In this document: positions 13,139 to 43,962 of the stretch, one piece after another | Numbering within the stretch: position 1 is the first letter of the stretch | How the letters are laid out: the number at the start of each line of letters is the position of its first letter | Notes under the pieces: generated by a model | Told to the model about the DNA's origin: nothing | The model's input: only the letters and a program-made list of their open reading frames with translations | Databases searched by the model: none | Made by a program: the position numbers and the translations under genes | Virus record (IMG/VR): IMGVR_UViG_3300028172_000069 | DNA length: 64,000 nt | Strand: one strand, 5' to 3' | Source of the DNA: a virus | Lineage: Duplodnaviria > Caudoviricetes

Positions 13139-13605
13139 TACATCACCAGGAAAATGCCCATGAATATGATGACTGCCTTGTGGATCAGCAGCTCGGTTGT
13201 GAGTTCGCGGTACTGCTGGCGTCGCTGGTTCTCGGTGTCAGCGTAGCGCTCTGCGTAGTAGTTACCACGTTCCTCTTCCAGCTTGAGATTCTCCAGCATC
13301 AGGTTGCGCTGGGTCACCAAGCCGTTGTGCGCTGTGAGCAGTAACTGCAACGCTTCGGTGTTCTGCTTGGCTGCTTGCCGATAGGCATTCAGTTGGTTCA
13401 TCCCAGCAGTGTCCAGAGTGGCGAAGCGCTCCTCGCCAATCGTCTGAATCTTGATCTGGGGCACCGCAGGTAGATCGACAGCTTTGGCGTTGAGACTGTC
13501 CACTGGAGCCAACGCGCTGTAGCGATCACTCTTGTCTGGCTGCACTTGGGTCATGCTGCACCCAGTGAGTACGCTCAAGGCGAGCACTGCCAATACCATT
13601 TTCAT
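13138..13605 (-). CDS. spanin-like lipoprotein with C-terminal hydrophobic anchor
   Basis: Lipobox VLTG-C, coiled-coil middle, C-terminal AVIIFMGIFLVM; within the lysis-like cassette. Confidence 0.6.
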   Translation of the reverse strand: MKMVLAVLALSVLTGCSMTQVQPDKSDRYSALAPVDSLNAKAVDLPAVPQIKIQTIGEERFATLDTAGMNQLNAYRQAAKQNTEALQLLLTAHNGLVTQRNLMLENLKLEEERGNYYAERYADTENQRRQQYRELTTELLIHKAVIIFMGIFLVM

Positions 13606-13656
13606 GTTCGTTACCTGTGCGAAAACCCGCAGCACGGTCAGCACTGCGGGTCCTGG

Positions 13657-14055
13657 TTATGCGCTTTTGGGCGCGTCGGGTAGTTGCTGGACGATTTCCT
13701 GCATCTTCGCCTCTTGCACTTGGATCGCAGCCTCTTGGCGAGCGATCACGTCAGCGGCAGCACCGGTCACAGGTACCTTGTTGAGCAAGTTGTCGCACGC
13801 AAAGCCAATGGCCATGTACGTCAGCTTGGACGACTCAGGGTCTGTGATGATGGTGAACGCAAACGCTGCAATCGTACCGATGATGGCAGTCTGCGAGCGC
13901 ACTGGGTTTGTGGTCCAGTAAGCCAGCAGCCCGATATCGAGTTCACGACAGCGCTTTGCCCAGTTAATGAGAACGCCAATGACAACGCACAGGAAGTACG
14001 TCAGTGCCACGGCGGGTTCGACACCAAGTAGCCCTTTGACTGCCTCGGTTATCAT
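13657..14055 (-). CDS. putative holin
   Basis: Small protein with 2-3 hydrophobic segments and a charged C-terminus, next to spanin-like and M15 genes. Confidence 0.5.
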   Translation of the reverse strand: MITEAVKGLLGVEPAVALTYFLCVVIGVLINWAKRCRELDIGLLAYWTTNPVRSQTAIIGTIAAFAFTIITDPESSKLTYMAIGFACDNLLNKVPVTGAAADVIARQEAAIQVQEAKMQEIVQQLPDAPKSA

Positions 14056-14066
14056 GTTGTACGCTC

Positions 14067-14369
14067 CTACTTATCCTCGTTCCAGTTGCGCACAGCATCG
14101 TCCAAACTCTTGTCGGGAGTGACGGGCTTTGGAGCCAGGGTCTGTTCGATCTGCGTGTGTTGGTCCTTTATCACGACCTGCTGTTGCTCCAGGTCTTTGA
14201 CGTTTTCATCCGCCTTGGTCATATCTGGTGGAGGTGGAGCAGTCACAGTTGAGCTACTACCACCCTTGGGAAAGGCGCGCACAACAACCGCTACTGCCAC
14301 CCCGAGCAGCAAAGCTCCCAACCACTTGAGCCACTTCACGGAAGAAGTCAACGCACCTTTAACGTCCAT
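14067..14369 (-). CDS. bitopic membrane protein, i-spanin-like
   Basis: N-terminal TM WLGALLLGVAVAVVV, Pro-rich linker, short coiled coil. Confidence 0.5.
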   Translation of the reverse strand: MDVKGALTSSVKWLKWLGALLLGVAVAVVVRAFPKGGSSSTVTAPPPPDMTKADENVKDLEQQQVVIKDQHTQIEQTLAPKPVTPDKSLDDAVRNWNEDK

Positions 14370-14371
14370 AG

Positions 14372-14569
14372 CTATTCACCTTCTCGATAGTGCTGGTGAG
14401 ACGCACGCTTGAGCACCCGATGGAGCCGGCGAGCCAGATCACCTTGGATTGCCCGAGATTGATCTTCAAACTCAGGTTCACGATCAGCTTCCTTCTTGCG
14501 CTTACCCTTGGGCAGTTGCTTCTGGAGCCGGGCTTTTACTGGTGGTAGAATATCGAAACTCACGTTCAT
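14372..14569 (-). CDS. small basic hypothetical protein
   Basis: 65-aa K/R-rich ORF downstream of a TAATTTA motif and hairpin. Confidence 0.5.
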   Translation of the reverse strand: MNVSFDILPPVKARLQKQLPKGKRKKEADREPEFEDQSRAIQGDLARRLHRVLKRASHQHYREGE

Positions 14570-14617
14570 GGCATACGTCCGAAAGGATAGTCCATAGCCA
14601 AGCATCTGACTATGGAC

Positions 14618-14624
14618 TAAATTA
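14618..14624 (-). promoter_or_regulatory. TAATTTA motif (putative late promoter) followed by a hairpin at 14589-14618
   Basis: Intergenic, ahead of the lysis cassette; AGTCCATAG...CTATGGACT inverted repeat immediately downstream. Confidence 0.5.
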
Positions 14625-14625
14625 T

Positions 14626-17223
14626 TCAGCCTAGTTTGGACCGACCCTTTTGGGCAATGCGGAAATTGCGGAGTGAAATGTCGCTACTCCACACGACCTG
14701 ACCACTACTCCCACCAAGACGACGGTTGAAGTACATGACAGAAGGGGTGTCCAGCTGAATGTCGATCGGGAACGCGAACTCGCCGATCATCACACCGTCA
14801 ACCCAGCATTGCATCATACCGTTGTCACGGGTAATCTGCATTTTGTACCACTTGTTCATCTGCACTGGGAAGTCGTACAGGCGATAGAAAGTCGCGTTGC
14901 CTCCGTGGTCGGTTGACAAATAGAAGTAACCGTTCGTGGTGTTGTACTGCACTTCCCAGTTTACCAACTTGCCAGGAGCAGCCCAAGTACCCCAATATAC
15001 CAAGGTAATCATGGACGTGCCCGCTTGAGACGCAGCCGTAGCGCAGTTGAATTCAATATCAACCGTGAAATCTGTGGTGCCGAACACCATAGAACTTGAC
15101 GGTTGAATTGACAAATACGAACCTGCAGGTAAGCGGACGAAGCCGTCGTTGTAGACAGGAGAGCCGTACGCCGACACGAAGGTCTCCAACTTACCATTTG
15201 TTACCAGAGGAATCACGTCAGGAGTGATGAACTCCAAGACAGGACGCCAAAGTTGGCTGGCTACAGCGCCAGTGTTCGACGAGATACCAGCGATAGCGTT
15301 GTTGGTACCACGACATACACGCGATGTGGTTGTTGTTGACAGGTACTCTTGGCACCATGACCCAGGCACATCCAAACCCAGCTCTTCATTGGTGAAGGCA
15401 GCCCAACGAGTAGCTGCTGAGGCGCTCACACTCACGCGATTCATCAGCAACGTCCACTCAGATACAGACGCACCCGCAGCACCGTTGCCAGTGTAAGGGT
15501 TCTGACTTGCACCTGTGGGGAGGCGAACGCGGAAGTGCCCACCAGCAGTCGTGATGCGAGTAGTCTGCTGCACAGGGCTGGATGAAGGCAGCGGCTGTAC
15601 GCCAGTACCCGTCTCCAGACCATAGACAGCACCTGCTTGGTAGAGCGCCTGCCACGAGATACCGGTGCGCAATGGCTTCTTCGGAATAAACAGGATCTTT
15701 CCGTCGAGAGCAAACTTCAACCATGTAGTGTCAGCATTGACGGGCGTACCTTCGGTGAGTCCGAGATACGTCGCAAGATCAACACCTTGCATGACCTCAC
15801 TCATTGGCACTTCACCAAAGTAACCCTGGTTGAAGTTACCGGCGATTGGCTTCTGTGGACCTGGGCCGTTGTATGGCGTGCGCACGCGCGGCAGTGCTAC
15901 ACGCGGACGCCCGATGTTACCGTTGTAAAGCGCTTTCGCTGCGATGCGAATGTTGGTGACGTGCAGGGCGTCCGAGTTTGCCGGAAAGCTGTCCCAGTTG
16001 TCGCGCAGGCCCCGAACTGTCGAGTTGTTGATTATGGGCAGAGGAGCGTTCATCTGCCCAACAAGGTCACCGTCGAAGTACATGGAGACGATGTTACCGA
16101 CCTTCTCTACTACGACATGGACGTCCGCACCGTACTTCGGAAGAAGCCTGTTTGCGTTGAACGCATACGTCGAAGTGCCAGAGTAAACATAGGCAAACTG
16201 GAGCTGCAACGCACCAGTGAAGAACAAGCACCACGAGTTACCGGCTTGCCCACCGTACGCCCACTGTGTGATAACGCCACACTGCCCGTTACCCATAGCT
16301 TGAGTGATGCGGAACTTGCACTCAATGGTAAAATCACCTGCACCAAAGTACGCCAATGGGGCCTCGAAGCGAGACGACGAAGGCTGCTGCGTGATGATGC
16401 GATTCCACTGCATCGCAGCGGTACCGGAGAGCGTGAAAGGCTCGCGGGTGATTTCGTTGATAAACTCGTTACGACGGAAGCTGGCCTGAAAAACAATGCC
16501 GCGCTGCTCTTCCTCAGTGTAAGTCTCATACACCAGAGCAGGCAGTTCTGTAGGTGGAGTGAATGGTCCGTTGTACGCGGACTTGCCACGCATCATACGG
16601 ATGTTCCAGCGCTTACCGATGGCCCCGCGGCGAATGCTCATCATTTCGGTCGACAAGAAGCCTGCGGTACTGTGCGGACCTTGATACTTGATCTGACCGT
16701 TGACGTAGATAGTCAGCACACCGTTGACACGGCATGCAGCAATGTGCGCCTTGGGTTGCAGTAGCTCTGGAATGTTGGTGATGGTAGCGTCACCTGCACC
16801 ACCACGATTACCTGTGGACGTCAGCAGGAAGTTGATGGCTTGTGCAGGCAGAACCGCGAAGTACATGGAGATATTGCCTTCACCGCCAGCACCGAGCATG
16901 TCCAAAGACAAGATGGTACCACCATACTGGCTGACCGAGGTGAACGCTACCCAGCTTTCGATGCTGAAATCTTCGTTCGCCTTGATGTACGGTGGAGGCA
17001 TACCGTTGAGGGCAGCATCTGTGGTGTTGGTCATCAACAAGGTGCTGTCGCTGGTATCAATCGACGCACCACTGCCCAGGGTTAGCAGCGTCTCACTACC
17101 TTCATCCAGAGGCAATCCTTCCTTGAACGTAAGTTGTGACCAGACGTACTGATTGTTCGGAGGTGGCCCACCCGTGTTCCTTTCGATCGGCCAAAGAGAG
17201 TAGCGAGGTATGAGAGACAGCAT
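14626..17223 (-). CDS. multi-LamG (concanavalin A-like) putative virion fibre/adhesin
   Basis: MLSLIPRYSLWP start; three LamG-like repeats (DFTIE, F.G.DFTIEC, HV.v...G....YfDG) plus a GYFGEV...WLKFALDGKILFIPKKP domain recalled from phiKZ-like virion proteins. Confidence 0.8.
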   Translation of the reverse strand: MLSLIPRYSLWPIERNTGGPPPNNQYVWSQLTFKEGLPLDEGSETLLTLGSGASIDTSDSTLLMTNTTDAALNGMPPPYIKANEDFSIESWVAFTSVSQYGGTILSLDMLGAGGEGNISMYFAVLPAQAINFLLTSTGNRGGAGDATITNIPELLQPKAHIAACRVNGVLTIYVNGQIKYQGPHSTAGFLSTEMMSIRRGAIGKRWNIRMMRGKSAYNGPFTPPTELPALVYETYTEEEQRGIVFQASFRRNEFINEITREPFTLSGTAAMQWNRIITQQPSSSRFEAPLAYFGAGDFTIECKFRITQAMGNGQCGVITQWAYGGQAGNSWCLFFTGALQLQFAYVYSGTSTYAFNANRLLPKYGADVHVVVEKVGNIVSMYFDGDLVGQMNAPLPIINNSTVRGLRDNWDSFPANSDALHVTNIRIAAKALYNGNIGRPRVALPRVRTPYNGPGPQKPIAGNFNQGYFGEVPMSEVMQGVDLATYLGLTEGTPVNADTTWLKFALDGKILFIPKKPLRTGISWQALYQAGAVYGLETGTGVQPLPSSSPVQQTTRITTAGGHFRVRLPTGASQNPYTGNGAAGASVSEWTLLMNRVSVSASAATRWAAFTNEELGLDVPGSWCQEYLSTTTTSRVCRGTNNAIAGISSNTGAVASQLWRPVLEFITPDVIPLVTNGKLETFVSAYGSPVYNDGFVRLPAGSYLSIQPSSSMVFGTTDFTVDIEFNCATAASQAGTSMITLVYWGTWAAPGKLVNWEVQYNTTNGYFYLSTDHGGNATFYRLYDFPVQMNKWYKMQITRDNGMMQCWVDGVMIGEFAFPIDIQLDTPSVMYFNRRLGGSSGQVVWSSDISLRNFRIAQKGRSKLG

Positions 17224-32574: not shown

Positions 32575-33411
32575 TTACCTTATGCCAATGATCGCCGCAG
32601 TGCCGGAGCGTGGAGCGGCGAATGTGATGCGGACATTGTTGCCGTCCAGAGGGATTTGCTCAGCGGGAATCATGTAATCCCCGTTGGGCAACGCGACTGC
32701 GATGATGAGGTTCTCAGTACCTAGGTCGTGAGCGATCAGCCACTCCAGGTCCTCATCTTCCTGCGTGTGCAGAAACTTTGGAACACCGTCACCGCCGCCA
32801 AGCTCAAGGGCTTTCACCTTGTTCTCAACGGTAGTTGTACGGGTACCCAGGGCACGCACCGAGTTGCGCACACTGGTAAGCTGTTGGTACACGGATGCTG
32901 CGAGCGACTGAGCAGCGGACGTCAGCTTCTCAACGAACGAACGAGGCACGGCTTCATCAGCCGCGTAGTCCTCGCTTGTTCCAAGAGTGCGTGGGTACAC
33001 AGGCCCAGTGAAGCGGCCGCCAGTTGCATCGAATGCACCCAGGTCGAATGCCGTCAAGTCGTGCGTGTTGCCGATGTTGCGATTCAGTTCTTGGAAGTCC
33101 TGATCGCTAGGACGAGGCTCGTCCCACATCTGCGCGTTCCAGAAGTTGGACTCCGTTGCCGCAGTCCACGTATGCGTGTGGTTTGCACTCGCACCGCGGT
33201 TGACACGGCGCAGTGCCGTTGACGTACTCGGGTCGATCCAGATGAGGTCCAGTGGAGCCACGACTTCAATCGGCTCCACCTTGCTCACGATGATGTTGAT
33301 GCGGGTTTTGCTTGGCCCGTCTGTGGTAAGCAGCACGGGATTAGAGTCAGTCAGGCCTCGGACTTGCGCTGCCTGAATGAGTCTTGCAATCGGCAGGACC
33401 ATGGGATTCAC
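32575..33411 (-). CDS. virion adaptor/fibre protein with coiled coil and W-I-x-H-x-L module
   Basis: PLDLIWIDP motif; coiled coil; C-terminal LEWLIAHDL...FAAPRSGTA. Confidence 0.7.
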   Translation of the reverse strand: MNPMVLPIARLIQAAQVRGLTDSNPVLLTTDGPSKTRINIIVSKVEPIEVVAPLDLIWIDPSTSTALRRVNRGASANHTHTWTAATESNFWNAQMWDEPRPSDQDFQELNRNIGNTHDLTAFDLGAFDATGGRFTGPVYPRTLGTSEDYAADEAVPRSFVEKLTSAAQSLAASVYQQLTSVRNSVRALGTRTTTVENKVKALELGGGDGVPKFLHTQEDEDLEWLIAHDLGTENLIIAVALPNGDYMIPAEQIPLDGNNVRITFAAPRSGTAAIIGIR

Positions 33412-33891: not shown

Positions 33892-34701
33892 TTAAGGAGC
33901 GTCGCTGCCAATGACGAAGTAGTAGAAGTCCCAGCCGGTGGCAGCCACAGGTTGAGTCCCGCCAGCACCATCGCTCTCTTGTGCAAGCAGCGAGGTGTCC
34001 ACGGAAAGCTCTGCGTTACCCTTGTTCACCCGATCAATCCGCACAGCGTTCTTGACGTTGCTCTTCGGGTTAATGAACTGGATGTGCATTGTCCGAGGCT
34101 TGTCGGTGATGAACGACTCTGGGAAGATCACGCGCTGGAAAAGCGCAGCCTCGGTCGACGTGAAGCGGCCCCAGCACTTCAAGCTGAGGTTGTCGAATCG
34201 CTCGTAGGCATCGACTTCACCCACGCCGAACGTTGGCGTCTTACCATCTTGCCCTGCTGGGCCAGTCGGACCGGTGGGACCCGTCGGGCCAGTAGCGCCC
34301 TGAACACCGGGACCACCACTCGAACCTGCAGGACCGGTTGCACCCTGAGGACCCGGATCACCTTTGGGGCCAACGCAACCCTGATCGCCGACACGGCCGT
34401 CTTTACCGTTACGACCGTTCGAGCCGGGTTTGCCTTGAGGGCCAGTGGGACCCGTAGGCCCCACTCCCACCGACTGCGTTGTAAGGAAGCCACGGATCAG
34501 CAGCGTACTGCGATCCGCGCGGTTGAGAACGAGTGAGCCCGTCTCCGAGTCATAATCACCGGAGACGATTGTGGTATCACCGTTCAGATTCTCGTCATCC
34601 TGAAGCTCCAGCTCATTGCCGTTGAACTTCACAATGTCGTTGGTATCACCCGTGCCCGGATCGAGCAGCGGCAATGGCACCCTGGTCAGTCTACCAGTCA
34701 T
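33892..34701 (-). CDS. collagen-like fibre protein 1
   Basis: 25 Gly-X-Y triplets; shared N-domain LTRVP...YDSETGSLVL; C-terminal fibre-tip domain (KCWG...FPESF...FYYFVIG). Confidence 0.85.
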   Translation of the reverse strand: MTGRLTRVPLPLLDPGTGDTNDIVKFNGNELELQDDENLNGDTTIVSGDYDSETGSLVLNRADRSTLLIRGFLTTQSVGVGPTGPTGPQGKPGSNGRNGKDGRVGDQGCVGPKGDPGPQGATGPAGSSGGPGVQGATGPTGPTGPTGPAGQDGKTPTFGVGEVDAYERFDNLSLKCWGRFTSTEAALFQRVIFPESFITDKPRTMHIQFINPKSNVKNAVRIDRVNKGNAELSVDTSLLAQESDGAGGTQPVAATGWDFYYFVIGSDAP

Positions 34702-34708
34702 AGTCTTC

Positions 34709-34879
34709 TCACTTCACGTTGAGCCATTTGGTGTTGTCCGAGGAGCGCACCTTGGTGTTGAGCGGGTTCATCTGAATCCACGACTTGTTGTCGCTCGCCC
34801 TGACTTTCCAACCCAGCTTGTCAAAGTTTTGAATCCACGGGTCGCTAACGGACTGTCGAACACGGAGTCTGACTGCCAT
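34709..34879 (-). CDS. 56-aa protein made of three (R/K)VR..(D/N)..W repeats
   Basis: LRVRQSVSDPW / WKVRASDNKSW / TKVRSSDNTKW; TAATG-coupled to the upstream gene. Confidence 0.7.
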   Translation of the reverse strand: MAVRLRVRQSVSDPWIQNFDKLGWKVRASDNKSWIQMNPLNTKVRSSDNTKWLNVK

Positions 34880-37800
34880 TATCCGATCTCCCCAATGCTG
34901 TTGGCTTGACCTTTCCAATCTGCTGCTTTGGTCAGGTACTGGACTTGGTTGTTGTAGCGCACGCTGAATCCAGCATAGCCAGGCGTACAGTTCGGGATGT
35001 TCTTGTATCGCAGGATCACGTTGCGAGTCCCCGCGCGTACATCCACAGTGAGTGTTGCCACGCCAATTGGACCAGAGCCCACCTTCTTACAGTCAATGTA
35101 CAACTCATAGTCATCGTCCGAGATAACGGTGATAACGTGCGAGCCGCTGTACGTGAACGGGATGAAGGCTTGCATCAGGTACATGACGTTGCCAGCAGCG
35201 CAATCGAAGTTTGGCTGCACGTGCAGGAGATTGCAGCCATCAGGACCACCAGCGCGCTCGAACACTTGCTCGCTTGGGTTCTGGTTGCAGATCGCGCTGT
35301 CGTCATCCATGATCGTGCCGAAGCCACCAGACTTGGTGATGTTACCCTTCGACGCATTGCCGATGGTCATGCCCACGGTGCGATCAGGTTGCTGCACGTC
35401 GTTACCGAAGACTGGGACACAGACCTGCTTGGAAGTCTCACCCGGTGCGAACGTCACGGTACCCGATGTTGGCTGATAGTCACGCTCCTCAACCTTGATG
35501 CGCAGTGCACCTTCACTACCGCCTGCAGGAATCTTCTCGCAGTGCAGACCATCCCACGCTTGGTGATCGCCCCACGCAGTAATCATGGCAGCTACGCTGA
35601 TAGCACTACGATCCACTGAGCCGTAGAACTCCATCCCGAACAGGTTAGCCAACTGGTTGGCACCAGACTCGAAGACGTAGTGGTCAGTGATGACAACAAG
35701 GCCACCACCGCGCTTAGCGTACTCGGCGAAGTTGGCTACCGAACCCTCCTTCAGGATACCTTCAGCCGCTACACCAGTTGCCGTCACCCGCGAACCCATG
35801 AAGATGATGGTGTCATACGTCAGGAGCTCAGCCAGTGGGATAGCACCCACAGAGTTCCACGCGTACACGTCTTTCATCACAGGCGTGAAGCCAGCAGCCG
35901 TGACAGTACCCGGCAAGCTGATACCGAACCCGTTGGGCTGACTGTCGAGCGTGTAGTTCCCACCAGTCGCGTTGTCGCAGGTAATCAACACCTTGCCTGT
36001 GCGATTGTTGGTGCGCGCAGTCCACTGGATCAAGTTCTTCAGGTAGGTGAATGCAGGTGGCAGACCAATGCCGGACACGAACACGGAGCTGAACGTGGCG
36101 TTTGCTTGCGACTGGGCACAGAAGCCCCAGCTGGTCTGGCCTGTGAATGCGCTCAGGTCAGCATCTGCACTCAGGTCCACTTCGATCTTGGTGCCAGAGT
36201 CCAGTGCAACCGAACCAAAGGGTGAGCAGTAGATCGTGATGATGTTGCAGTCACGCTCAACCCGCACACGGGTCTGCCCACGACCATTCCAGTTCCCGTT
36301 GCCGCCAGAAGTCTTCGTCGCGAGCACCTTAGTAGGTACACCGTTGACAAGCAGCGTCAGATTGAAGTTACCACTACCATAACCTCCCATGCCACCGGGT
36401 ACACGCGATGCAACCAGATGGTAGTTGTCAGCACCAACACGGGCGAACGCAGCTACCAAGCCGATCATATCGTCATCCGCCTCGCCAGACGACAGCGTGG
36501 CCTCAAACGTGTAGCTCATGTACGACAGCGGCGAACAGAACGAAATCATCTTGGAACTGTTCGTGGTCGACTGGATGTTCCCGCTCGACAACCGCCATGC
36601 AGTAGCTTGCGATGCAGCAGGGATTGTGGTAGGGTCCGAGTAATACTCGTCGCCTGCCGTCCGCCACCACGAGTCGAATACGGCCTGACCAGTAGGTGCA
36701 TCCTGCGGCGCCCTGTAGGCATTGTTGTAGAACTTGGGGAACCCGCCATCGAATGCTGCACGACCAACGCCACAGTCCGCGACTGCGATAAAGGGGTTGT
36801 TGAACTCGTCGTTCGCCAAAATCCGGCCTTGGCAGATGAAGGGCTTAGCAGTACCGCCACCAGATTGGTAATCGACAGTCACAGGCATGGACTGCGGCTT
36901 ATCCATAGTCACGGTCCAGCAGAGTTGGGCAGTCTCACCCTCCTTGCCTTCCTTGACAATCGGATCGTCGATGCTGATGTTTGGATCCTCATCACCCGGG
37001 CACGTATGCAGGAACGACCACGAGGTCTTACCGCTGCCAGTTACCCGAATCTGGATCTTCTGACCACCAGCGGGGTTGTAGTTGAAGTACAGCCAGTGAT
37101 CGCCAGTAACAGGCCCACCAGTCGTCGCAACCAACGTACCGCCTTGATAGACGTCCAGCTTATCGGGGATGTTGTACATCTGGTAACGCACACCCACCTT
37201 ACCAGCATTCGGACCCATATCGACATAGGTGTCAGTAACACCAGCACCACCAGACGTCACGGCGCTCTGATCCGAACACGGCCGTGGATCATCTTCACTA
37301 CCCTTCTCGCCCGGACAGGTGATCAGGTAAATCCACGAGGTCCCAGGGTCCCGTGCAGTGATGCGCACCATGACAAGCTGCGACTCGGTAGGCGAATAGT
37401 CAAACTTCACATGGCCTTCGCCTGCCACGTATCCGCCAGTAGACTTGAGCAACCGTCCGTCTTGGAATACTTCGAGCTTATCCGGCTGGTTCCACATCTG
37501 GTAGTGTATGTCTACCAAGCCAGCCTTATCACCCATGGCGTGATAGAACTCAAACGTTCCCAACCCGCCTTCTTTCTTCACCTCGAACGTACCGTGGCAT
37601 GGACGTGGATCAGTGATTTCACCGTCCGTATCGTCGTCACCCACGCACTTCATCTGGAGCGTCCACTTGCTGGCCTTAGTAGCCCTAACCCGGACAAACA
37701 CCAGTGGGTCGTTATTCACCGGCGTGAACACGAACTGCAATACGCCTTTGCCAGTACGCTGCCCACCAGTGCTCGCAATGACCTTGCCGCGGTAGTACAC

Positions 37801-38529
37801 ATCGACACTAACAGCACCAGCGTTCGCCATCCATGGCATACGCACCGCACCGCCTTCCTTGCCCATGTTCAGGTAGAACTCCCAGATACCCTTACCGCTA
37901 CCATTGATAGCACTTGGGCACTCGAATGGGCAATCAAACCCACCGGCGATCTTCGTACCGCAGTCCATGTCCGGACGGATAATGAGGACACCCTTCTCCT
38001 CACAGACACCCAGTCCGGGACGGTAGATACACGAGCCCTTGTCGCCCGCTCCATCCCCATCGCTATCTGGCAGATCATAGCCACCTGGATATGGTGCTCC
38101 TTCCTGCCATCCAGAGCCGCCTTGGCCGGATCCTTTATCCCCATTATTGTACCAAGGGCTGCCAGGACCGTTCAAACCGCCTCCTATTCCGCCCGACCCA
38201 GACCCAGGGTCCGTGCCGTTACCGCCCGCCCCTCCGTTGCCTCCGTTGCCACCTGTTCCACCGCCGGAGCCGTTACCACCACCTGAACCATTGCTACCCT
38301 TACCGTCCGGTGTGCCGCCGTACTCATCCTCAGTGTCACAACTGGCTAGGCCTTCCGCCTTGCAATCAATGTCCAGCCAATAGGTCTCAGCACCATGGCG
38401 AACCTTCATGCCCTGCGCAGGAGTGATGCGTGTCCAGCCTGTGTTGCTTGGATTGCGCACCCGCCATTCACTCTGGCAGATATCCAACCACTTGGTGTTG
38501 GCCGCATTCCTGATTCTTAGTCTACTCAT
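34879..38529 (-). CDS. 1216-aa modular adhesin-like virion protein
   Basis: N-terminal triple RVR..N..W repeat, Gly-rich linker, three Cys-flanked beta-sandwich repeats, split Calx-beta, TSP-C-like DDDMIG lectin, GATase-like domain, PA14-like C-terminus. Confidence 0.8.
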   Translation of the reverse strand: MSRLRIRNAANTKWLDICQSEWRVRNPSNTGWTRITPAQGMKVRHGAETYWLDIDCKAEGLASCDTEDEYGGTPDGKGSNGSGGGNGSGGGTGGNGGNGGAGGNGTDPGSGSGGIGGGLNGPGSPWYNNGDKGSGQGGSGWQEGAPYPGGYDLPDSDGDGAGDKGSCIYRPGLGVCEEKGVLIIRPDMDCGTKIAGGFDCPFECPSAINGSGKGIWEFYLNMGKEGGAVRMPWMANAGAVSVDVYYRGKVIASTGGQRTGKGVLQFVFTPVNNDPLVFVRVRATKASKWTLQMKCVGDDDTDGEITDPRPCHGTFEVKKEGGLGTFEFYHAMGDKAGLVDIHYQMWNQPDKLEVFQDGRLLKSTGGYVAGEGHVKFDYSPTESQLVMVRITARDPGTSWIYLITCPGEKGSEDDPRPCSDQSAVTSGGAGVTDTYVDMGPNAGKVGVRYQMYNIPDKLDVYQGGTLVATTGGPVTGDHWLYFNYNPAGGQKIQIRVTGSGKTSWSFLHTCPGDEDPNISIDDPIVKEGKEGETAQLCWTVTMDKPQSMPVTVDYQSGGGTAKPFICQGRILANDEFNNPFIAVADCGVGRAAFDGGFPKFYNNAYRAPQDAPTGQAVFDSWWRTAGDEYYSDPTTIPAASQATAWRLSSGNIQSTTNSSKMISFCSPLSYMSYTFEATLSSGEADDDMIGLVAAFARVGADNYHLVASRVPGGMGGYGSGNFNLTLLVNGVPTKVLATKTSGGNGNWNGRGQTRVRVERDCNIITIYCSPFGSVALDSGTKIEVDLSADADLSAFTGQTSWGFCAQSQANATFSSVFVSGIGLPPAFTYLKNLIQWTARTNNRTGKVLITCDNATGGNYTLDSQPNGFGISLPGTVTAAGFTPVMKDVYAWNSVGAIPLAELLTYDTIIFMGSRVTATGVAAEGILKEGSVANFAEYAKRGGGLVVITDHYVFESGANQLANLFGMEFYGSVDRSAISVAAMITAWGDHQAWDGLHCEKIPAGGSEGALRIKVEERDYQPTSGTVTFAPGETSKQVCVPVFGNDVQQPDRTVGMTIGNASKGNITKSGGFGTIMDDDSAICNQNPSEQVFERAGGPDGCNLLHVQPNFDCAAGNVMYLMQAFIPFTYSGSHVITVISDDDYELYIDCKKVGSGPIGVATLTVDVRAGTRNVILRYKNIPNCTPGYAGFSVRYNNQVQYLTKAADWKGQANSIGEIG

Positions 38530-38544
38530 TGGTAGAACTCCAAC

Positions 38545-39060
38545 TTATGGCTTGACCCACAGTGCCCCAGGGACAACGTGGACGGCAGCATCCAGCACTG
38601 GGTCAGCGGTCTGAATCCAGATTTGAACGACGCCATCCTTGCCATCAGGGCCAGTGGGTCCAGTTGCACCGTTAGGGCCTGTAGCCCCTGGGTTGCCTTG
38701 TTCGCCGCGAGGGCCTTGACGACCGGGAGGGCCAGCTGGGCCTTGGCAACCAGTGGCACCCTTCTCACCGTCAGTACCATTGAGACCATCACGGCCATCT
38801 TGACCTGCTGGGCCAGTGGGGCCTGCTTGGCCAACGCCCATGTCGCTGACAGTGGTGAACCCAGAGAGCTGGAGGCTTTCACCATTGCGCAGGACGAGCG
38901 TCAGGGTACCAGAGGTGGCGTCGTAGTTACCAGCCGTGATGCCGTAGTCGTTCTGGTTGAGGCTATCCTCTTCCACCACGACGTTGTTACCATCGAAGCG
39001 CACGTCACTACCAGAGCGACCTTTGGCATCGAGCAATTTGAGTGGAACGCGAGTCAGCAT
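38545..39060 (-). CDS. collagen-like fibre protein 2
   Basis: 23 Gly-X-Y triplets; MLTRVP start; [10 protein letters not shown]; C-term IQTADP...GALWVKP. Confidence 0.85.
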
Positions 39061-39072
39061 AAGGTCACCTTG

Positions 39073-39768
39073 TTATGGCCATGGAGTGCCGATGGGTGGG
39101 TCAGTCGCAGGAGGCGTTACAGTGCCGCCACCGCCGCCACCCGATGCAGGAGTTTCAGTGGCGCTTGGGTTAACCCAGAGCCAGCCAGCACCCACGTTAC
39201 CAGGGTCAGTAGTGGAGACGATGATATTCACGGTACCTGCAGGGCCAGGAGCACCCGGCTTACCCGTAGGACCTTGCTCACCTCTTGGACCAGTGGGGCC
39301 GATTGGACCTTGCGGGCCAGTGGGTCCGCGTTCACCCGGTGCACCCTTGGGACCTGGGCAACCACGAACGCCTTGCTGACCCATCATGCCATCGCGACCA
39401 TCAGGGCCGGTAGCACCAGTGGCGCCTTGTGGCCCCGCTGGACCTTGGCAACCCTCTTCGCCTTTCTCACCGTCCTTACCATCACGGCCGTCTTGGCCAT
39501 CTTTACCCGGCAAACCCTGAGGGCCTGTGGGACCAGCAGGGATGTTACCCGCTGTGGCAAAGCCATTGATACGAACGGTATCACCGTTGCTCATGGTGAG
39601 CGTCAGGATACCCAGCTGGGCATCGTAGTAGCCGCTGGAGACTTCACTGATATCCGACTCAAGCGGCGCACTGGCCTCAAGGTGTTCGTCCCTGACCACT
39701 ACTTCGGTCTGGTCTGATTCACCCGGGGCATAGATCAACGAACTGTGGATTCGAGTCAAGCCTGTCAT
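39073..39768 (-). CDS. collagen-like fibre protein 3
   Basis: 34 Gly-X-Y triplets; [10 protein letters not shown]; C-term VSTTDP...GWLWVNP. Confidence 0.85.
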
Positions 39769-39777
39769 GTTGAATCC

Positions 39778-41187
39778 TTATAGGTACTGCTGCACGGAGC
39801 TGTTGCCTGCCCAGTTGTCGTCAGTCTTGGATGAGGCAAACTCACCTTTGAGGCCGGCGTTCTTGGCATTCTTACCCGTGAAGTACAGCAGTTCGCCTGT
39901 GGAGGCGTTGTAGATTTTCAGGGCACACCACGTTGGGATGCGCGCTGCGTTGTTGAGGAAGCGCAGGCGAACCTCAGTGGGTTTGTCCAGTGTCTTCGTG
40001 ACTCGCGTGGTACCACCTGGGTAGTCCGTCTGGCTGATGATCGCACAGTTCAGGAACAAGGTGGAGGCAACGCCCGGTGGAGTAATCAACTCGAAGGTGT
40101 ACGCTGCACCAGCGGCCAGAGTACCACACATGACGACACTGTTTGGCCACCATGCAGTGTTTTGCCGTGCGAGTGGAAGTCCCGAGAGACCCAGTACACC
40201 GCCACCTGCATCGAAGTTGGCCCATGCAACATACCACGCAGTCGAGGTACCACCACACGAACTCTTCGGACTCTGGTTACCAAAGCTCGTACACAGGCTG
40301 ATGCGCGCAGATGCAGTAGGTGGAGGCGATGGGTTAGCTGGCGCTGATGTATCAGGAGCAGGCGTTGCTGGCGCAGTAGTTGCACCGCACAGCTTACCAG
40401 TCCAGCCACACGTTGGCGCAACTGCATCAACACCGTCATCGTCCAAGCCCATGATTGCGACTTCTGGATCAGAGGCAGCGGCTAGGCCAAAGGCAACACC
40501 CTTACCGAACTTGGCACCTTGTGCACCTTGAGCGCCAGTGTTCTCTTCATCGCAACTTGGTCCAGTGAGGCCACGAGCGCCTTCAAACCCGTTACGTCCC
40601 TGTGGACCCACGACACCACGATCGCCCGATGCACCCTCACAACCGTCTGGACCTTGCAAGCCCATGATGCCGGGATTACCTTCGACGCCTGGGTTACCAG
40701 TCTCACCCGGATCACCCTTCTCACCTTCGCAACCGGTAGCACCTTGAGCACCATCACGACCGAGACGTCCGTTCTTCCCATCTTTACCCGGATCGCCACG
40801 AGGACCTGTAGCACCATGACCCATCGCGTCTTGGCGCAGGAAGTTGAAGATGCGGTACTCTTCTTGGTTCTTCCGCACGAGGACAAGCGAACCCGTTTGT
40901 GGGTCGTAGCTCCACTCCTCGATAAGGCGCCCGTTCTCCAGCGTGCGATCACGGTAGTCGATGCTGTTGGACTCTTTGCGGAAGGCTTCCCTGCCATCCT
41001 GCCCAAACGTCTCGAACTGGTTGAGTTGTGGCTCAGTCAATGTCTGGCCAGTCATCAGGGCCTGAATCTCTTTCGAGTTCTTCACCCTGAGGTTTGTAAT
41101 CACAGGCGCACCGATGGGCACCCGGGATTGGTCTCCTAGGATAGACTTCCCAAGGAGTGGAGAGTCGGAAACACCTTTCACACTCAT
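39778..41187 (-). CDS. collagen-like fibre protein 4 with C-terminal PA14-like domain
   Basis: 29 Gly-X-Y triplets; YDPQTGSLVL; Cys-rich C-terminal beta domain. Confidence 0.85.
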   Translation of the reverse strand: MSVKGVSDSPLLGKSILGDQSRVPIGAPVITNLRVKNSKEIQALMTGQTLTEPQLNQFETFGQDGREAFRKESNSIDYRDRTLENGRLIEEWSYDPQTGSLVLVRKNQEEYRIFNFLRQDAMGHGATGPRGDPGKDGKNGRLGRDGAQGATGCEGEKGDPGETGNPGVEGNPGIMGLQGPDGCEGASGDRGVVGPQGRNGFEGARGLTGPSCDEENTGAQGAQGAKFGKGVAFGLAAASDPEVAIMGLDDDGVDAVAPTCGWTGKLCGATTAPATPAPDTSAPANPSPPPTASARISLCTSFGNQSPKSSCGGTSTAWYVAWANFDAGGGVLGLSGLPLARQNTAWWPNSVVMCGTLAAGAAYTFELITPPGVASTLFLNCAIISQTDYPGGTTRVTKTLDKPTEVRLRFLNNAARIPTWCALKIYNASTGELLYFTGKNAKNAGLKGEFASSKTDDNWAGNSSVQQYL

Positions 41188-41652: not shown

Positions 41653-43962
41653 CTATTTGGCAATCTTCGGCGTACCGATGATGTTGACGTTGACGTTCAG
41701 GAACGAACCGTACTGGCTCACGTTCGCGTTCTTCACCCGCATCTTCACCACAACGTCGATGTAGCCCGCTGGGTGGTTCTTGGTCACAATATCGTAGACC
41801 TGAGTGAGCGAGGCGTTGGAGTAGGCACGTTCGTTCTTGTCGCCACCAAGGGACGAGAAGCCAGCAGTACCAGTACCTGCAATCTGGCGACCGTAATCAG
41901 GCTCCTGACTCTTGGACGAACGGAAGCCAACCACGTACTCCATGATCTCCAAGCCTTCTTCCGTGACGAAGCCAGGGCCGAGTGCTGCTTGGAAGTCAGC
42001 GTGGACAGTCACCATCACGTCACTGGAGAGATTGACACGGTGCGTGAACAGAATCTCTTGGGCGTCCTTCTGGTTCCGAGTATCCGTGAACTTGAAGTTG
42101 GCCTCGGCATCAGTCAGTTGCTCACTGATGGTCGATTCGATCCGGTACACAGGGTGCGAACCACTGATACGGATACCCGAGCCAGCGATCAGCGATACGC
42201 CAGGCACAGGCAGGACAATCGGCTTGGCACCATGACGCAGGAGCTTCAAGGTACGACCAGTAAGCACTGCATCAATGACCACACCAGCAAGGTTGGTATT
42301 GCTACTGCCTTGTGCTGGCGCGTTGTCGTACAGGGTAATCTCGACACCCAGGCCTTTGCGAATCGGCCCAGTGAAGATCACCTTGTTGTCTACCAGAGTG
42401 TACTGGTTGCCATGGATGTGCGCACCAGACTGGGATACCTCGATGTACTCAACCGACTGCGGAGTGAACGGCAGTTCGAGGAAGTACGTGTCGTCACTGG
42501 TGATCGTGGCGATGGTCGAGATGGTGGTGCTGTAACCCTCGAAGTCTTCGATACGGAAGCTACGCAACTCCACGTCAACGCCAGCAGGGATCGGTGCTAC
42601 AAACTTGACCTCCTGCGTTGTGGCATCGTAGGTGAACGTGGTGAGCATCTGCCGGATACCGCGAATGTACGCCTTGATGTAGTTGGCGTCTTGCACGGGC
42701 TGGCTGATCTTGAAGTTCTGCGTGCTGCCATCACCCACCACATGGTCAACCTTGATCAACATGCGGCTGCCGTTCGACGGGATACGTGTGAACAGGCGCA
42801 GGTCAATTGGAATCTGGGCGGCAATTGCCTCCACAAACTCAATCTCGTTGCCGCTCATATCAAACGCATCACGGTGCTGGGTTACACCACCAAGCGCTGG
42901 CTGCAGGTAGTTGACGTTCTCGATTTCCAGATCGCCAAGGGCATAGCGTGCCTCGGTACCATCGCCTGTGTAGTTGATAGTGCTCATTACCAGCTTGGAA
43001 GGCGCACGGTACAGCGTGCTATTGATCCCACCAGACGACTTGGGTGGCGCCCAACGTGGGCATTCGTCATAACCACGAACGAGTACCCAGTCAGCAGGCA
43101 CACCATCCATGATCGGCGGGTAAGAGCACGCACCGCCTGCACCACCAGCACCTCCACGACGTCGCCATACAGCGATAGTCGATTGGGCATCGAGGCCAGT
43201 GACTGGCTGCGAGTCAGCTTCAACCAGCTTGGTACCCGACACACGGTAACGGCGCGACTTGCCTTGACCATTGCCGAGGACGACGTGGCCAATGACTATC
43301 TCGTTATCGTCGAGGTCGATTCCGCTGAGAGTAATCTCAGTAGCGCTGGCAGCCGTGGGCTTTCCGAAGAAGATACGATCATGGTCGCTAAATGCCCACT
43401 GGAAACCACCTGCACCAGAACGCATAGCCAGAACAGGAGTAGCACTGCCATCCGAGTTATACGTACCATCCAGTACCGTAACCGCATTGAACGAGCTTTC
43501 TCCAGGCGATTGCAGACGGAAGACGTTGGGCGTCGATGGAATGGACGAGTAGTCGCCAATGGTGACGTTGATAGTCGTCAGGTCACAACGGCTAGTTACC
43601 AGCAGGCAGTTGAAGCGAACCGTCTCACCCTTGATCAGGATGTAAGGCGTCTCGAAGACACAGCGCCCAAGCAGCGTACGGCTGCTCAGGTATACGCAGG
43701 TCTCACGGACTTCCGTGTCTTCCTTGATCAGGTAGCCCGGGATTTCAAAGACGAAGCGAGCGGTGTTCTTGGAGAGCACCTCCACGTGGTGGATGGTACC
43801 CTCGAAGAGGTTGTTGCCCAGAATGTCGACGGCATCAGTCTTGCTCGGGGACTGCGAGGAGTCCCCAAACTTGAAGAAGGTAGCGTCAACGAGCTGGCCG
43901 CCTGCCGACGCGTTGTTGATCGCCTGTAGGCCAACGTCGGAAAGAATCAGCACTTCGCTCAT
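41653..43962 (-). CDS. baseplate-attached tail fibre/collar protein
   Basis: N-terminal phage tail-collar-fibre (DUF3751-like) domain ILSDVGLQAI...F.FGD...ETCVY...LLG; GDG.T..F repeats. Confidence 0.7.
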   Translation of the reverse strand: MSEVLILSDVGLQAINNASAGGQLVDATFFKFGDSSQSPSKTDAVDILGNNLFEGTIHHVEVLSKNTARFVFEIPGYLIKEDTEVRETCVYLSSRTLLGRCVFETPYILIKGETVRFNCLLVTSRCDLTTINVTIGDYSSIPSTPNVFRLQSPGESSFNAVTVLDGTYNSDGSATPVLAMRSGAGGFQWAFSDHDRIFFGKPTAASATEITLSGIDLDDNEIVIGHVVLGNGQGKSRRYRVSGTKLVEADSQPVTGLDAQSTIAVWRRRGGAGGAGGACSYPPIMDGVPADWVLVRGYDECPRWAPPKSSGGINSTLYRAPSKLVMSTINYTGDGTEARYALGDLEIENVNYLQPALGGVTQHRDAFDMSGNEIEFVEAIAAQIPIDLRLFTRIPSNGSRMLIKVDHVVGDGSTQNFKISQPVQDANYIKAYIRGIRQMLTTFTYDATTQEVKFVAPIPAGVDVELRSFRIEDFEGYSTTISTIATITSDDTYFLELPFTPQSVEYIEVSQSGAHIHGNQYTLVDNKVIFTGPIRKGLGVEITLYDNAPAQGSSNTNLAGVVIDAVLTGRTLKLLRHGAKPIVLPVPGVSLIAGSGIRISGSHPVYRIESTISEQLTDAEANFKFTDTRNQKDAQEILFTHRVNLSSDVMVTVHADFQAALGPGFVTEEGLEIMEYVVGFRSSKSQEPDYGRQIAGTGTAGFSSLGGDKNERAYSNASLTQVYDIVTKNHPAGYIDVVVKMRVKNANVSQYGSFLNVNVNIIGTPKIAK

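What the first reader, a model, noticed from the sequence alone, without database searches (positions are those of the whole stretch)
33892..41187. Four collagen paralogs with Cys locked at Gly-X-Y triplet 10 (and 20): a registered, possibly heteromeric cross-linked collagen fibre
Seen by counting from the first triplet: GCV (33892 gene), GCQ (38545), GCQ (39073) and GCE (39778) are all triplet 10. The two longer helices have a second Cys at triplet 20 (GCP, GCE), and in 39778 a Cys ends the helix after triplet 29. Triplets 4-8 are charge-rich in all four, and all share an N-domain (YD...G.L.L...G....I.GF). Helix lengths differ (25, 23, 34, 29 triplets), as do the C-termini. Known: animal collagens use Cys knots and charge pairs to set chain register and heterotrimer choice, whereas characterised prokaryotic and phage collagens are generally homotrimers. 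Inference: heterotrimers, or a disulfide/metal-stapled bundle of triple helices bearing different tips.
Basis: partly seen in the sequence, partly recalled or inferred. Interest (0 to 1): 0.8.

Follow-up and report, generated by a model that had tools for sequence, protein, structure and literature searches.

The report
Registered cysteine collagen fibres, jumbo phage
Four neighbouring tail-fibre genes of a giant PaBG-like bacteriophage encode collagen rods that all carry a nearly invariant exposed cysteine ten triplets into the helix, and two of them have co-evolved as if their strands wind into one mixed triple helix, which has not been documented for a collagen outside animals.

Summary
All four proteins have Cys at the X position of triplet 10. 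C (231 aa) and D (469 aa) have a second Cys at triplet 20, and D has a third right after triplet 29.

- **Conservation:** Cys-10 is the most conserved non-glycine helix position in the family (79 of 83 relatives; 44 of 47 copies in 12 genomes). Unrelated collagen-like proteins have 9 Cys in 9,779 triplets.
- **Origin:** The window is a PaBG-like "hairy" jumbo myophage. The four paralogue types predate the split of the PaBG, Lu11, Y3/JA and marine lineages.
- **Heteromer:** Mixing of all four chains is not supported. B (23 triplets) and A (25) look like separate homotrimers.
- **C and D are coupled:**
  - They have equal collagen length (34 triplets, counting D's break).
  - Cys-20 is present or absent together in 29 of 29 genomes, though this reflects only 3 independent events.
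  - Their charges co-vary only at the Y-to-X' positions where strands of one helix touch. D shows no self-complementarity.
  - A mixed C2D helix is my leading reading (about 0.4-0.5).
- **Cross-linking:** The thiols point outward, so an intermolecular role is inferred. No disulfide or metal has been shown.

This scan reached a similar mixed-helix reading on another genome (e1-5319646).

The parts
33892..34701 (-). Paralogue A: N-domain, 25-triplet collagen helix (nt 34237-34461), 114-aa C-terminal domain. Orthologue of PaBG gp236.
   Evidence: ORF and triplet parse. Pfam Collagen E 1.6e-11. PHROG 8745 tail fibre E 8.9e-28. Synteny with PaBG.
34375..34377 (-). Cys109 codon (TGC) of A: X position of triplet 10
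38545..39060 (-). Paralogue B: N-domain, 23-triplet helix (nt 38626-38832), 26-aa cap ending in the LWVKP motif, no tip domain. Orthologue of PaBG gp239.
   Evidence: Helix length is invariant in 51 aligned relatives. Charges self-co-vary at contact offsets.
38746..38748 (-). Cys105 codon (TGC) of B: X position of triplet 10
39073..39768 (-). Paralogue C: N-domain, 34-triplet helix (nt 39229-39534), cap motif, then a Gly/Pro-rich tail. Orthologue of PaBG gp240.
39448..39450 (-). Cys107 codon of C (triplet 10, X). The second Cys, Cys137 (triplet 20, X), is at 39358-39360.
39778..41187 (-). Paralogue D. In order: a 45-aa N-terminal extension, the N-domain, 29 triplets, a 6-residue break that starts with Cys212, 3 more triplets (collagen region nt 40510-40815, 34 triplet units in all), a linker, and a C-terminal beta-sandwich (residues about 293-465). 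Orthologue of PaBG gp241.
   Evidence: The C-terminal domain is modelled at pLDDT 81-93. Its best structural match is phage Chi tail-tip chain 8vjh_B (Z 11.6, rmsd 2.3, 125 residues), followed by lectin and CBM folds.
40729..40731 (-). Cys153 codon of D (triplet 10, X). Cys183 (triplet 20, X) is at 40639-40641. Cys212 (the Gly position of unit 30, the helix break) is at 40552-40554.
34879..38529 (-). 1216-aa adhesin-like protein directly downstream of B. Its N-terminus carries three basic-x-R...W repeats. It is the candidate tip carried by the B stalk.
   Evidence: PHROG 26008 and a weak Calx-beta hit. A protein with this N-terminal repeat follows B directly or within two small ORFs in PaBG, Lu11, HRDY3, Y3, JA11 and six metagenomic contigs. 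Complex prediction gave weak support only.
34709..34879 (-). 56-aa protein made of the same triple repeat, lying between the adhesin gene and A
41653..43962 (-). 769-aa tail-collar-fibre-like protein upstream of the collagen genes. It was used as the phylogenetic marker for the cluster.
   Evidence: PHROG 21488 E 0. 71% identical to PaBG gp243. Tree.

Best explanation
**What it is (shown)**
- The four genes are ancient paralogues of one fibre-subunit family. By structure search, the family's N-domain matches only proteins of the PaBG/Lu11/Y3/JA group of "hairy" jumbo myophages.
- They sit in the baseplate and tail-fibre module.
- Each has a beta-rich N-domain of about 75 aa and a collagen stalk.
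- The first 12 or so triplets of the stalk are conserved across paralogues: acidic Y at triplets 4, 5 and 7, Cys at 10X, Pro at 11X.
- Beyond that, stalk length is fixed per type and the tips differ.

**How the chains assemble (inferred from co-evolution)**
- B and A form their own homotrimers.
- C and D are assembled in register with each other, most likely as one mixed triple helix of two C strands and one D strand. The co-variation pattern fits D as the middle strand best.

**What the cysteines do (inferred, not shown)**
- X-position side chains point away from the helix axis.
- Each helix therefore shows a ring of three free thiols about 8 nm from the N-domain. C/D shows a second ring at about 17 nm.
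- The 30-residue spacing equals one supercoil turn of a proline-poor 10/3 helix, so successive cysteines of a strand face the same way.
- The thiols are too far apart to bond within a helix.
- After the virion leaves the reducing cytoplasm, they most likely form disulfides to a neighbouring stalk or a virion protein at fixed heights. This would work like the single helical cysteines of collagen VI.
For: **Context**
- 61-71% amino-acid identity and full synteny with PaBG gp236-243.
- Baseplate wedge and tail-protein PHROG families lie next door.
- The clade is the "hairy Myoviridae", whose hair proteins are still unknown (PMC6143709).

**Cys-10**
- 79 of 83 relatives have it, at 3.97 bits.
- 44 of 47 copies in 12 genomes have it. 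It is present in nearly every copy in 33 further IMG/VR loci.
- Background is 9 Cys in 9,779 triplets.
- The paralogue types are old: the tree gives the D, A and C groups 89-97% support, each spanning all lineages.

**C-D coupling**
- D's collagen region is 29 triplets, a Cys break, then 3 triplets, making 33-34 units. C has 34. Many D orthologues carry the same cap motif as C.
- Cys-20 state agrees between C and D in 29 of 29 distinct genomes. There are 3 changes on the marker tree, and 3 of 3 independent pairs go the same way.
- Mean charge correlation between Y(n) of one chain and X(n+offset) of the other:
  - C to D: -0.21 at offset 0 and -0.28 at offset +1.
  - D to C: -0.25 at offset 0.
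  - All three lie below every one of 183 non-contact-offset values (null mean 0.005, sd 0.082, minimum -0.194).
  - B with itself: -0.22 and -0.23.
  - D with itself: about 0.
  - B with C or D: about 0.
  - The result is unchanged with 22 representatives under 85% identity.
- In 13 independent sister pairs, C(Y) and D(X') changed charge in opposite directions in 35 of 44 cases at contact offsets, against 117 of 228 elsewhere (p 1e-4).
- X-X and Y-Y pairs show no signal, as expected for strands of one helix rather than side-by-side rods.
- Simple charge-pair scores (favourable minus unfavourable contacts):
  - DDD averages 1.0 and is 0 or lower in 14 of 22 genomes, reaching -27.
  - CDC averages 15.5 and CCC 15.6.
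  - The best C2D beats the homotrimer mix by 5.7 on average.
  - The C/B, C/A, D/B and B/A control pairs are negative; D/A is slightly positive (+1.4 to +1.7).

**Cross-link analogy**
- Each collagen VI chain has a single Cys in its collagenous region, used for supramolecular disulfides. The one in alpha3 lies 30 residues into the helix (PMC12354898).
Against: **Against or limiting the C-D mixed helix**
- There are no biochemical or structural data.
- In the window's own sequences, CCC (23) and DDD (13) both score well and the mixed helices (16-18) score no better. The charge argument therefore rests on relatives.
- The D(Y)-to-C(X) contrast test is not significant (22 of 34, p 0.14). One control pair, B to C, reached p 0.013.
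- The Cys-20 co-variation rests on only 3 independent events (sign test p 0.25).
- D's break is 3, 5 or 6 residues long in different lineages, while C has no break.
- Lu11-type D proteins carry three Cys around the break with no counterpart in C. That would suit a D3 cystine knot.

**Against or limiting the disulfide role**
- Virions assemble in a reducing cytoplasm.
- No thioredoxin or DsbA gene was found in this record or in PaBG, Lu11, Y3 or JA11. The Erv1/ALR search was uninformative because its control did not ring.
- B has lost Cys-10 three times and JA11's D once, without loss in the partner paralogues where these could be read.
- No neighbouring gene has a Cys as conserved as Cys-10.
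Confidence: 0.45

Rival explanations
1. There are four independent homotrimeric fibres. Cys-10 (and Cys-20) tie each rod to a common non-collagen virion partner, or tie C3 and D3 rods that lie side by side in register. The C-D co-variation would then reflect lateral packing or a shared partner, not a shared helix.
For: Prokaryotic collagen-like proteins studied so far are homotrimers (PMC8968730). The window's and PaBG's C and D both score well as homotrimers. Lu11-type D has a Cys cluster at the break that suits a D3 knot. D's break length varies while C stays constant. Collagen VI shows that lateral disulfides between parallel collagen rods exist.
Against: Co-variation is confined to Y-X' pairs at offsets 0 and +1. 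It is absent for X-X and Y-Y pairs, which generic side-by-side packing would not predict. D shows no self co-variation and has many like-charge self contacts, with DDD at 0 or below in 14 of 22 genomes. No neighbouring protein has a comparably conserved Cys.
Confidence: 0.27
2. The exposed thiols are metal ligands, bridging helices or binding a partner through a metal ion, rather than forming disulfides.
For: An invariant Cys in a protein assembled in the cytoplasm often means metal binding (own knowledge). No phage-encoded thiol oxidase was found. D's Cys at the Gly position of unit 30 lies near the helix axis, where three thiolates could meet (inference).
Against: X-position side chains of one helix diverge and cannot chelate one ion (canonical geometry, own knowledge). 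No conserved His, Asp or second Cys sits beside Cys-10: the flanking Y9 and Y10 positions are variable.
Confidence: 0.1
3. Cys-10 is an intra-helix staple or folding register. A disulfide, permanent or transient, between two of the three strands would lock the chain stagger.
For: Animal collagens use cystine knots to lock trimers. The P22 tailspike uses transient disulfides during folding (PMC3357383, listed; own knowledge).
Against: There is one Cys per strand, mid-helix, all at X. Intra-helix contacts are Y-to-X', not X-to-X'. Engineered mid-helix Cys/homocysteine bridges were destabilising or negligible (bioRxiv 10.1101/2024.09.30.615841). Natural knots use two adjacent Cys at a helix end (own knowledge).
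Confidence: 0.07
4. Chains of all four paralogues mix freely or combinatorially in heterotrimers.
For: The four share an N-domain and a conserved first 12 triplets.
Against: Helix lengths are fixed per type and differ: 23, 25 and 34. B and C carry the same cap directly after helices of different length. In the correlation test B co-varies with itself and not with C or D; one B-to-C sister-pair contrast reached p 0.013. Mixed B/C, B/D, A/B and A/C helices score worse than homotrimers.
Confidence: 0.03

Closest known systems
Pseudomonas phage PaBG gp236, gp239, gp240, gp241 (annotated 'tail fiber protein'), with their counterparts in Lu11, HRDY3, Erwinia Y3 and Dickeya JA11
   Same: Direct orthologues, in the same gene order. 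Helix lengths are the same per type, apart from the A-type in the Lu11 group (48-49 triplets) and small variations in D. Cys-10 is kept in all but JA11's D.
   Different: The window is a distinct phage, 61-74% identical at the amino-acid level, with no megablast match. None of these proteins has been studied biochemically in the papers I could search.
Collagen-like side-tail-fibre proteins of E. coli O157:H7 prophages (EPclA-D, PMC3368898) and the PHROG collagen tail-fibre families 8745, 6320, 5073 and 819
   Same: A phage-borne Gly-X-Y stalk without hydroxyproline, flanked by non-collagen domains, in tail-fibre modules.
   Different: Those proteins are described as homotrimers. The N-domain here has no solved structural analogue and occurs only in the PaBG group. 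An invariant mid-helix Cys is absent from generic collagen-like hits.
Animal collagen VI
   Same: One Cys per chain inside the collagenous region, used for disulfides between molecules rather than within the helix. The alpha3 Cys lies 30 residues into the helix, as Cys-10 does here (PMC12354898).
   Different: It is eukaryotic and secreted, oxidised in the ER, and has von Willebrand domains. There is no sequence relationship. Disulfides have not been shown here.
Animal type I collagen (two alpha1 chains and one alpha2) and designed charge-paired heterotrimeric collagen peptides
   Same: AAB composition, with chain choice read out in Y-to-X' charge pairs. In several lineages C is basic-only and D acidic-only in triplets 4-8, like the Lys-rich and Asp-rich designed peptides (own knowledge).
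   Different: There is no C-propeptide. Chain selection would have to come from the N-domain or the cap. The evidence here is co-variation only.
C1q, collectins and the collagen IV 7S domain (bundled collagen stalks with N-terminal Cys)
   Same: Parallel collagen stalks held in register near the N-terminus by Cys, carrying globular heads (own knowledge).
   Different: In those proteins the Cys lie mostly in the non-collagen N-terminal segment. Here the Cys is ten triplets inside the helix, and bundling is unproven.

Membership tests
Collagen triple-helix repeat proteins (Pfam PF01391) | Uninterrupted Gly-X-Y repeats scoring above the Pfam gathering threshold | tested here: met
   The four proteins have 23-34 triplets. 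PF01391 scores are 38.7-64.4 bits against a cut-off of 27.2.
Collagen triple-helix repeat proteins (Pfam PF01391) | The chains actually form a triple helix | not testable with these tools
   This needs CD spectroscopy, protease resistance or a structure. The monomer AF2 models leave the stalk extended.
Phage collagen-like tail fibres (PHROG 8745, 6320, 5073) | Profile match and a position in the tail or baseplate gene module | tested here: met
   PHROG 8745 E 1e-28 to 1e-52. The neighbours are a baseplate wedge, a tail protein and a tail-collar fibre.
Phage collagen-like tail fibres (PHROG 8745, 6320, 5073) | Presence in the virion | not testable with these tools
   The PaBG MALDI survey listed 14 bands, none of them these proteins. 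Y3 gp110 is annotated as a virion structural protein in its record.
PaBG-group N-domain collagen fibre family (defined here) | A beta-rich N-domain of about 75 aa directly before the helix, and Cys at X of triplet 10 | tested here: met
   Alignment A4 has Cys invariant in 42 selected rows. The unselected count is 79 of 83. Structural matches occur only in PaBG, Lu11, Yoloswag, NCTB, JA13 and SNUABM phages.
Heterotrimeric (AAB) collagen | Two different gene products in one triple helix | not testable with these tools
   Indirect evidence only: equal length, Cys-20 concordance, and charge co-variation specific to contact offsets.
Heterotrimeric (AAB) collagen | Inter-chain complementarity exceeds self-complementarity | tested here: inconclusive
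   Met on average: C2D gains 5.7 and DDD averages 1.0. It is not met for the window's own pair, where CCC is 23, DDD is 13 and the mixed helices are 16-18.
Collagen VI / collagen IV 7S-type intermolecular disulfide via a helical Cys | A single Cys per chain within the collagenous domain at a fixed position | tested here: met
Collagen VI / collagen IV 7S-type intermolecular disulfide via a helical Cys | The Cys is oxidised to a disulfide linking two molecules | not testable with these tools
   This needs non-reducing gels or disulfide mapping of virions.
Collagen cystine knot (type III GPCCG, FACIT junction) | Two closely spaced Cys per chain at the end of the helix | tested here: not met
   Cys-10 and Cys-20 are single, mid-helix, X-position residues. 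Only D's Cys at unit 30, and the 28Y/30G/32Y cluster of Lu11-type D, resemble a knot.
C1q/collectin bouquet | Cys in the non-collagen N-terminal segment joining trimers, and a C1q or lectin head on every chain | tested here: not met
   The N-domains of A, B and C have no Cys. B and C have no head domain. D's head is a lectin-like beta-sandwich.

The most novel reading that the evidence does not exclude
C and D form a natural AAB (C2D) heterotrimeric collagen helix. It would be the first outside animals. Its outward thiol rings, spaced one supercoil turn apart (triplets 10 and 20), would oxidise after lysis into a disulfide ladder. That ladder would tie the helix in register to the A and B homotrimer stalks or to the baseplate. 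The result would be a covalently cross-linked, multi-tipped collagen assembly on a phage.
Probability: 0.25. Interest if true: 0.88.

Novelty: new variant of a known kind. Interest (0 to 1): 0.72.

Why it matters
  - Here a phage family keeps a mid-helix cysteine more strictly than any other non-glycine helix residue.
  - Two of its chains carry the evolutionary signature of strands that touch each other.
  - If confirmed, this would give a small, genetically tractable, hydroxyproline-free model for heterotrimer chain selection and for registered collagen cross-linking. It would also offer building blocks for recombinant collagen materials.
- **For phage biology:** It would assign parts to the unexplained fibre and "hair" apparatus of the PaBG/Lu11/Y3 jumbo phages.
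- **Testability:** PaBG is a cultured relative, so the predictions can be tested directly.

Tried and rejected
- **Nucleotide search:** Megablast of the region against phage records found nothing. Relatives were found at the protein level instead.
- **N-domain fold:** Foldseek found no PDB analogue (best E 0.46). I do not claim that the fold is new.
- **Locus searches:** The search for related loci with the B alignment failed for lack of a conserved stretch. With B alone it gave only near-identical contigs and unrelated collagens.
- **Profile search:** The N-domain plus 13 triplets, searched against 1.8 billion representatives, was swamped by long generic collagens. The few full-length matches all had Cys-10. 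The long proteins lacked the N-domain on inspection.
- **Disulfide machinery:** No Erv1/ALR, thioredoxin or DsbA family match was found in this record, PaBG, Lu11, Y3 or JA11. The Erv1 control rang nowhere, so that result is uninformative.
- **Partner cysteine in neighbouring genes:** The collar protein and the small proteins have none. The wedge, the 1425-aa protein and the adhesin have Cys in at most 8-9 of 10-12 genomes.
- **My own earlier argument, now withdrawn for C and D:** I first argued that differing helix lengths make all four homotrimers. Counting D's post-break triplets gives 34 units, equal to C.
- **Net-charge complementarity:** This was checked and rejected as an argument. D's acidic excess also reduces clashes with A. 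Only the offset-specific co-variation is used.
- **Heterotrimer by complex prediction:** I did not run this. Any Gly-X-Y chains are likely to be laid into a helix, so neither outcome would be informative.


Full report
**Observation**

The region holds four minus-strand genes, which I call A to D.

| Gene | Coordinates | Length | Triplets | Cys |
|---|---|---|---|---|
| A | 33892-34701 | 269 aa | 25 | 10X |
| B | 38545-39060 | 171 aa | 23 | 10X |
| C | 39073-39768 | 231 aa | 34 | 10X, 20X |
| D | 39778-41187 | 469 aa | 29 | 10X, 20X, and Cys212 directly after triplet 29 |

- Each gene has an uninterrupted Gly-X-Y run preceded by a related N-terminal domain of about 75 aa.
- One addition matters later. 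After a 6-residue break that begins with Cys212, D continues with three more triplets. Its collagen region therefore spans 34 triplet units, exactly like C.

**Context**

- The window belongs to an IMG/VR virus record of 137.7 kb, about half complete.
- Its proteins are 61-71% identical to those of Pseudomonas jumbo phage PaBG, with the same gene order: baseplate wedge, large tail protein, tail-collar fibre, small protein, D, C, B, 1216-aa adhesin, 56-aa protein, A.
- The same cluster occurs in Lu11, HRDY3, Erwinia Y3, Dickeya JA11 and many metagenomic contigs.
- This clade has been called the "hairy Myoviridae". The authors who studied the Dickeya members state that the hair proteins are unknown and that these tail-fibre genes are candidates (PMC6143709).
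- All four proteins match Pfam Collagen and PHROG tail-fibre families.
- The N-domain is beta-rich in an AF2 model. It has no convincing PDB counterpart and matches only proteins of this phage group.

**Is the cysteine more than chance?**

- Among 107 collagen-like hits that lack the N-domain, there are 9 Cys in 9,779 triplets.
- Among 83 relatives that carry the N-domain, 79 have Cys at X of triplet 10. At 3.97 bits it is the most conserved non-glycine position of the helix, ahead of Pro 11X, Asp 7Y and Asp 5Y.
- In 12 genomes, 44 of 47 paralogue copies have it. The pattern holds across 33 further loci.
- The paralogues are old.
  - Their DNA is only 53-62% identical in triplets 1-13.
  - In a tree, the D, A and C types each include members from all phage lineages.
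  - The residue has therefore been kept independently in four gene lineages.
- The exceptions are three B-type proteins and the JA11 D-type. In the two B cases where neighbouring genes could be read, and in JA11, the other paralogues keep their Cys.

**Homotrimers or heterotrimers?**

Helix length is fixed within each type: B 23, C 34, A 24-25 (48-49 in the Lu11 group), D 33-34 with its break.

*B and A look like separate homotrimers.*
- B and C end in a homologous short cap directly after the helix. B and C strands therefore cannot share one helix that is in register at both ends.
- I measured, across 28 genomes, the correlation between the charge at Y of triplet n in one chain and at X of triplet n+offset in another.
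- Offsets 0 and +1 are the lateral and axial contacts between neighbouring strands (own knowledge of collagen geometry). All other offsets serve as an internal null that keeps the phylogeny.
- B against itself gives -0.22 and -0.23 at the contact offsets. B against C or D gives about 0. The 183 null values have mean 0.005, sd 0.082 and minimum -0.194.

*C and D were the surprise.
- C(Y) to D(X) gives -0.21 and -0.28. D(Y) to C(X) gives -0.25 at offset 0. All three are beyond every null value.
- D against itself gives nothing.
- In 13 phylogenetically independent sister pairs, simultaneous charge changes in C(Y) and D(X') were opposite in 35 of 44 cases at contact offsets, against 117 of 228 elsewhere (p 1e-4). 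The reverse direction was 22 of 34 (p 0.14). One control pair, B to C, reached p 0.013.
- The signal is confined to Y-X' pairs. X-X and Y-Y pairs show none. This fits strands inside one helix better than two rods lying side by side.
- A simple charge-pair count gives D3 a mean score of 1.0, at or below zero in 14 of 22 genomes and as low as -27. C3 scores 15.6 and C-D-C scores 15.5.
- The best C2D beats the homotrimer mix by 5.7 on average. The C/B, C/A, D/B and B/A control pairs lose, while D/A gains slightly (1.4 to 1.7).
- In several clades C is basic-only and D acidic-only in triplets 4-8.
- The offset pattern is C to D at 0/+1, D to C at 0/+1, and C to C at +1/+2. It fits D as the middle strand between two C strands.
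- Cys-20 is present in both C and D, or in neither, in 29 of 29 distinct genomes. There are three changes on the marker tree. Three events cannot reach significance (p 0.25).

*Caveats.*
- In the window's own pair both homotrimers score well.
- D's break length varies among lineages.
- Lu11-type D has a three-Cys cluster at the break that would suit a D3 knot.
- I therefore put a mixed C2D helix at roughly 0.4-0.5, in-register lateral pairing or a shared partner at about 0.25, and free mixing of all four chains at about 0.03.

**What do the cysteines do?**

- X-position side chains point outward. Strand contacts within a helix are Y-to-X', not X-to-X'.
- Engineered mid-helix Cys bridges were destabilising or negligible. 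Natural intra-helix knots use paired Cys at a helix end (own knowledge).
- Each helix therefore most likely shows a ring of three free thiols about 8 nm from the N-domain. C/D shows another ring at about 17 nm, and D has a Cys on the axis at the break at about 25 nm.
- Ten triplets equal one supercoil turn of a proline-poor 10/3 helix (own knowledge). The cysteines of one strand would then face the same side.
- The best-documented analogue is collagen VI. Each of its chains has one Cys in the collagenous region, used for disulfides between molecules. The alpha3 Cys lies 30 residues into the helix (PMC12354898).
- I infer an intermolecular role, most likely disulfides formed after lysis. I could show neither the oxidation state nor the partner.
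  - No thioredoxin or DsbA gene was found in these phages; the Erv1/ALR search was uninformative.
  - No neighbouring gene has an equally conserved Cys.
- Metal binding and a docking contact remain open.

**Tips**

- D ends in a confidently modelled beta-sandwich. Its best structural match is a domain of the phage Chi tail-tip complex (8vjh_B, Z 11.6, rmsd 2.3 over 125 residues), followed by lectins and carbohydrate-binding modules.
- B has no tip. It is followed directly (in one relative after two small ORFs) by a large adhesin whose N-terminus is a threefold repeat.
- I ran a complex prediction of three B caps with that N-terminus.
  - The verdict was weak support only: median score 0.44 against a best control of 0.08.
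  - The three runs agreed in at least 92% of contacts, and partner pLDDT was at least 71.
  - The calibration mark was reached by 58 of 80 solved complexes and 2 of 110 mismatched pairs.
  - At 0.60 or under, it was reached by only 7 of those 80, and by both mismatches that passed.

**Comparison and novelty**

- These are members of the known kind "collagen-like phage tail fibres" and direct orthologues of annotated PaBG genes.
- Two things are new relative to the literature I could search.
  - A strictly conserved mid-helix cysteine register.
  - A co-evolutionary signature of a two-gene collagen helix. A recent review states that prokaryotic collagens are homotrimers (PMC8968730).
- Earlier agents of this scan described the PaBG paralogues as ordinary fibres with unusually fixed lengths (e1-1991553). 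On another genome they proposed a two-chain helix (e1-5319646). My tests on an independent set of 22-29 genomes agree with the latter.

Noticed in passing
window 38545-38625 (B cap) and 38344-38529 (adhesin N-terminus): B has no tip domain and ends in a conserved cap. The next large gene begins with three basic-x-R...W repeats. Each checked relative has a large protein with this N-terminal repeat just downstream of B. This suggests that a monomeric adhesin docks on the trimeric B stalk. Complex prediction gave weak support only: 0.44 against a best control of 0.08.
   Followed up: partly
window 34709-34879: A 56-aa protein consists of the same triple repeat as the adhesin N-terminus. It lies between the adhesin gene and A, and overlaps the adhesin stop. 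It is conserved in PaBG and in several metagenomic relatives.
   Followed up: partly
window 39793-40311 (D residues about 293-465): D's C-terminal beta-sandwich resembles a domain of the phage Chi tail-tip complex (8vjh_B, Z 11.6) and lectin/CBM folds. It has four invariant Cys of its own: C299, C311, C354 and C381.
   Followed up: partly
L002:9034-9720, L003:8989-9789, L028:5798-6595 and other Lu11-group loci: Lu11-group D orthologues lack Cys-20. Instead they have three Cys around the helix break (28Y, 30G, 32Y), which resembles a cystine knot. They are short, and an 830-aa protein follows them.
   Followed up: partly
L023:9231-9986; L038:11667-12737; L059:11669-13465 and 13496-16240: Some relatives carry extra C-like paralogues. 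Some of these have long C-terminal domains (356, 598 and 914 aa). All have Cys-10 but not Cys-20.
   Followed up: no
window 32575-33411: The 278-aa protein is filed under a PHROG named 'HNH endonuclease' (E 5e-64). It sits among fibre genes and also hits tail-fibre PHROGs. The name looks doubtful.
   Followed up: no
L006:9001-10437 (Y3 gp110) and L030:8026-9537: The D-type orthologue of Erwinia phage Y3 is annotated as containing an intein domain. The marine relative has a faint Intein_splicing hit. I did not examine this.
   Followed up: no
L015, L016/L031, L017/L035: Three other IMG/VR records, from different samples, carry B and collar-protein genes 100% identical to the window's.
   Followed up: no
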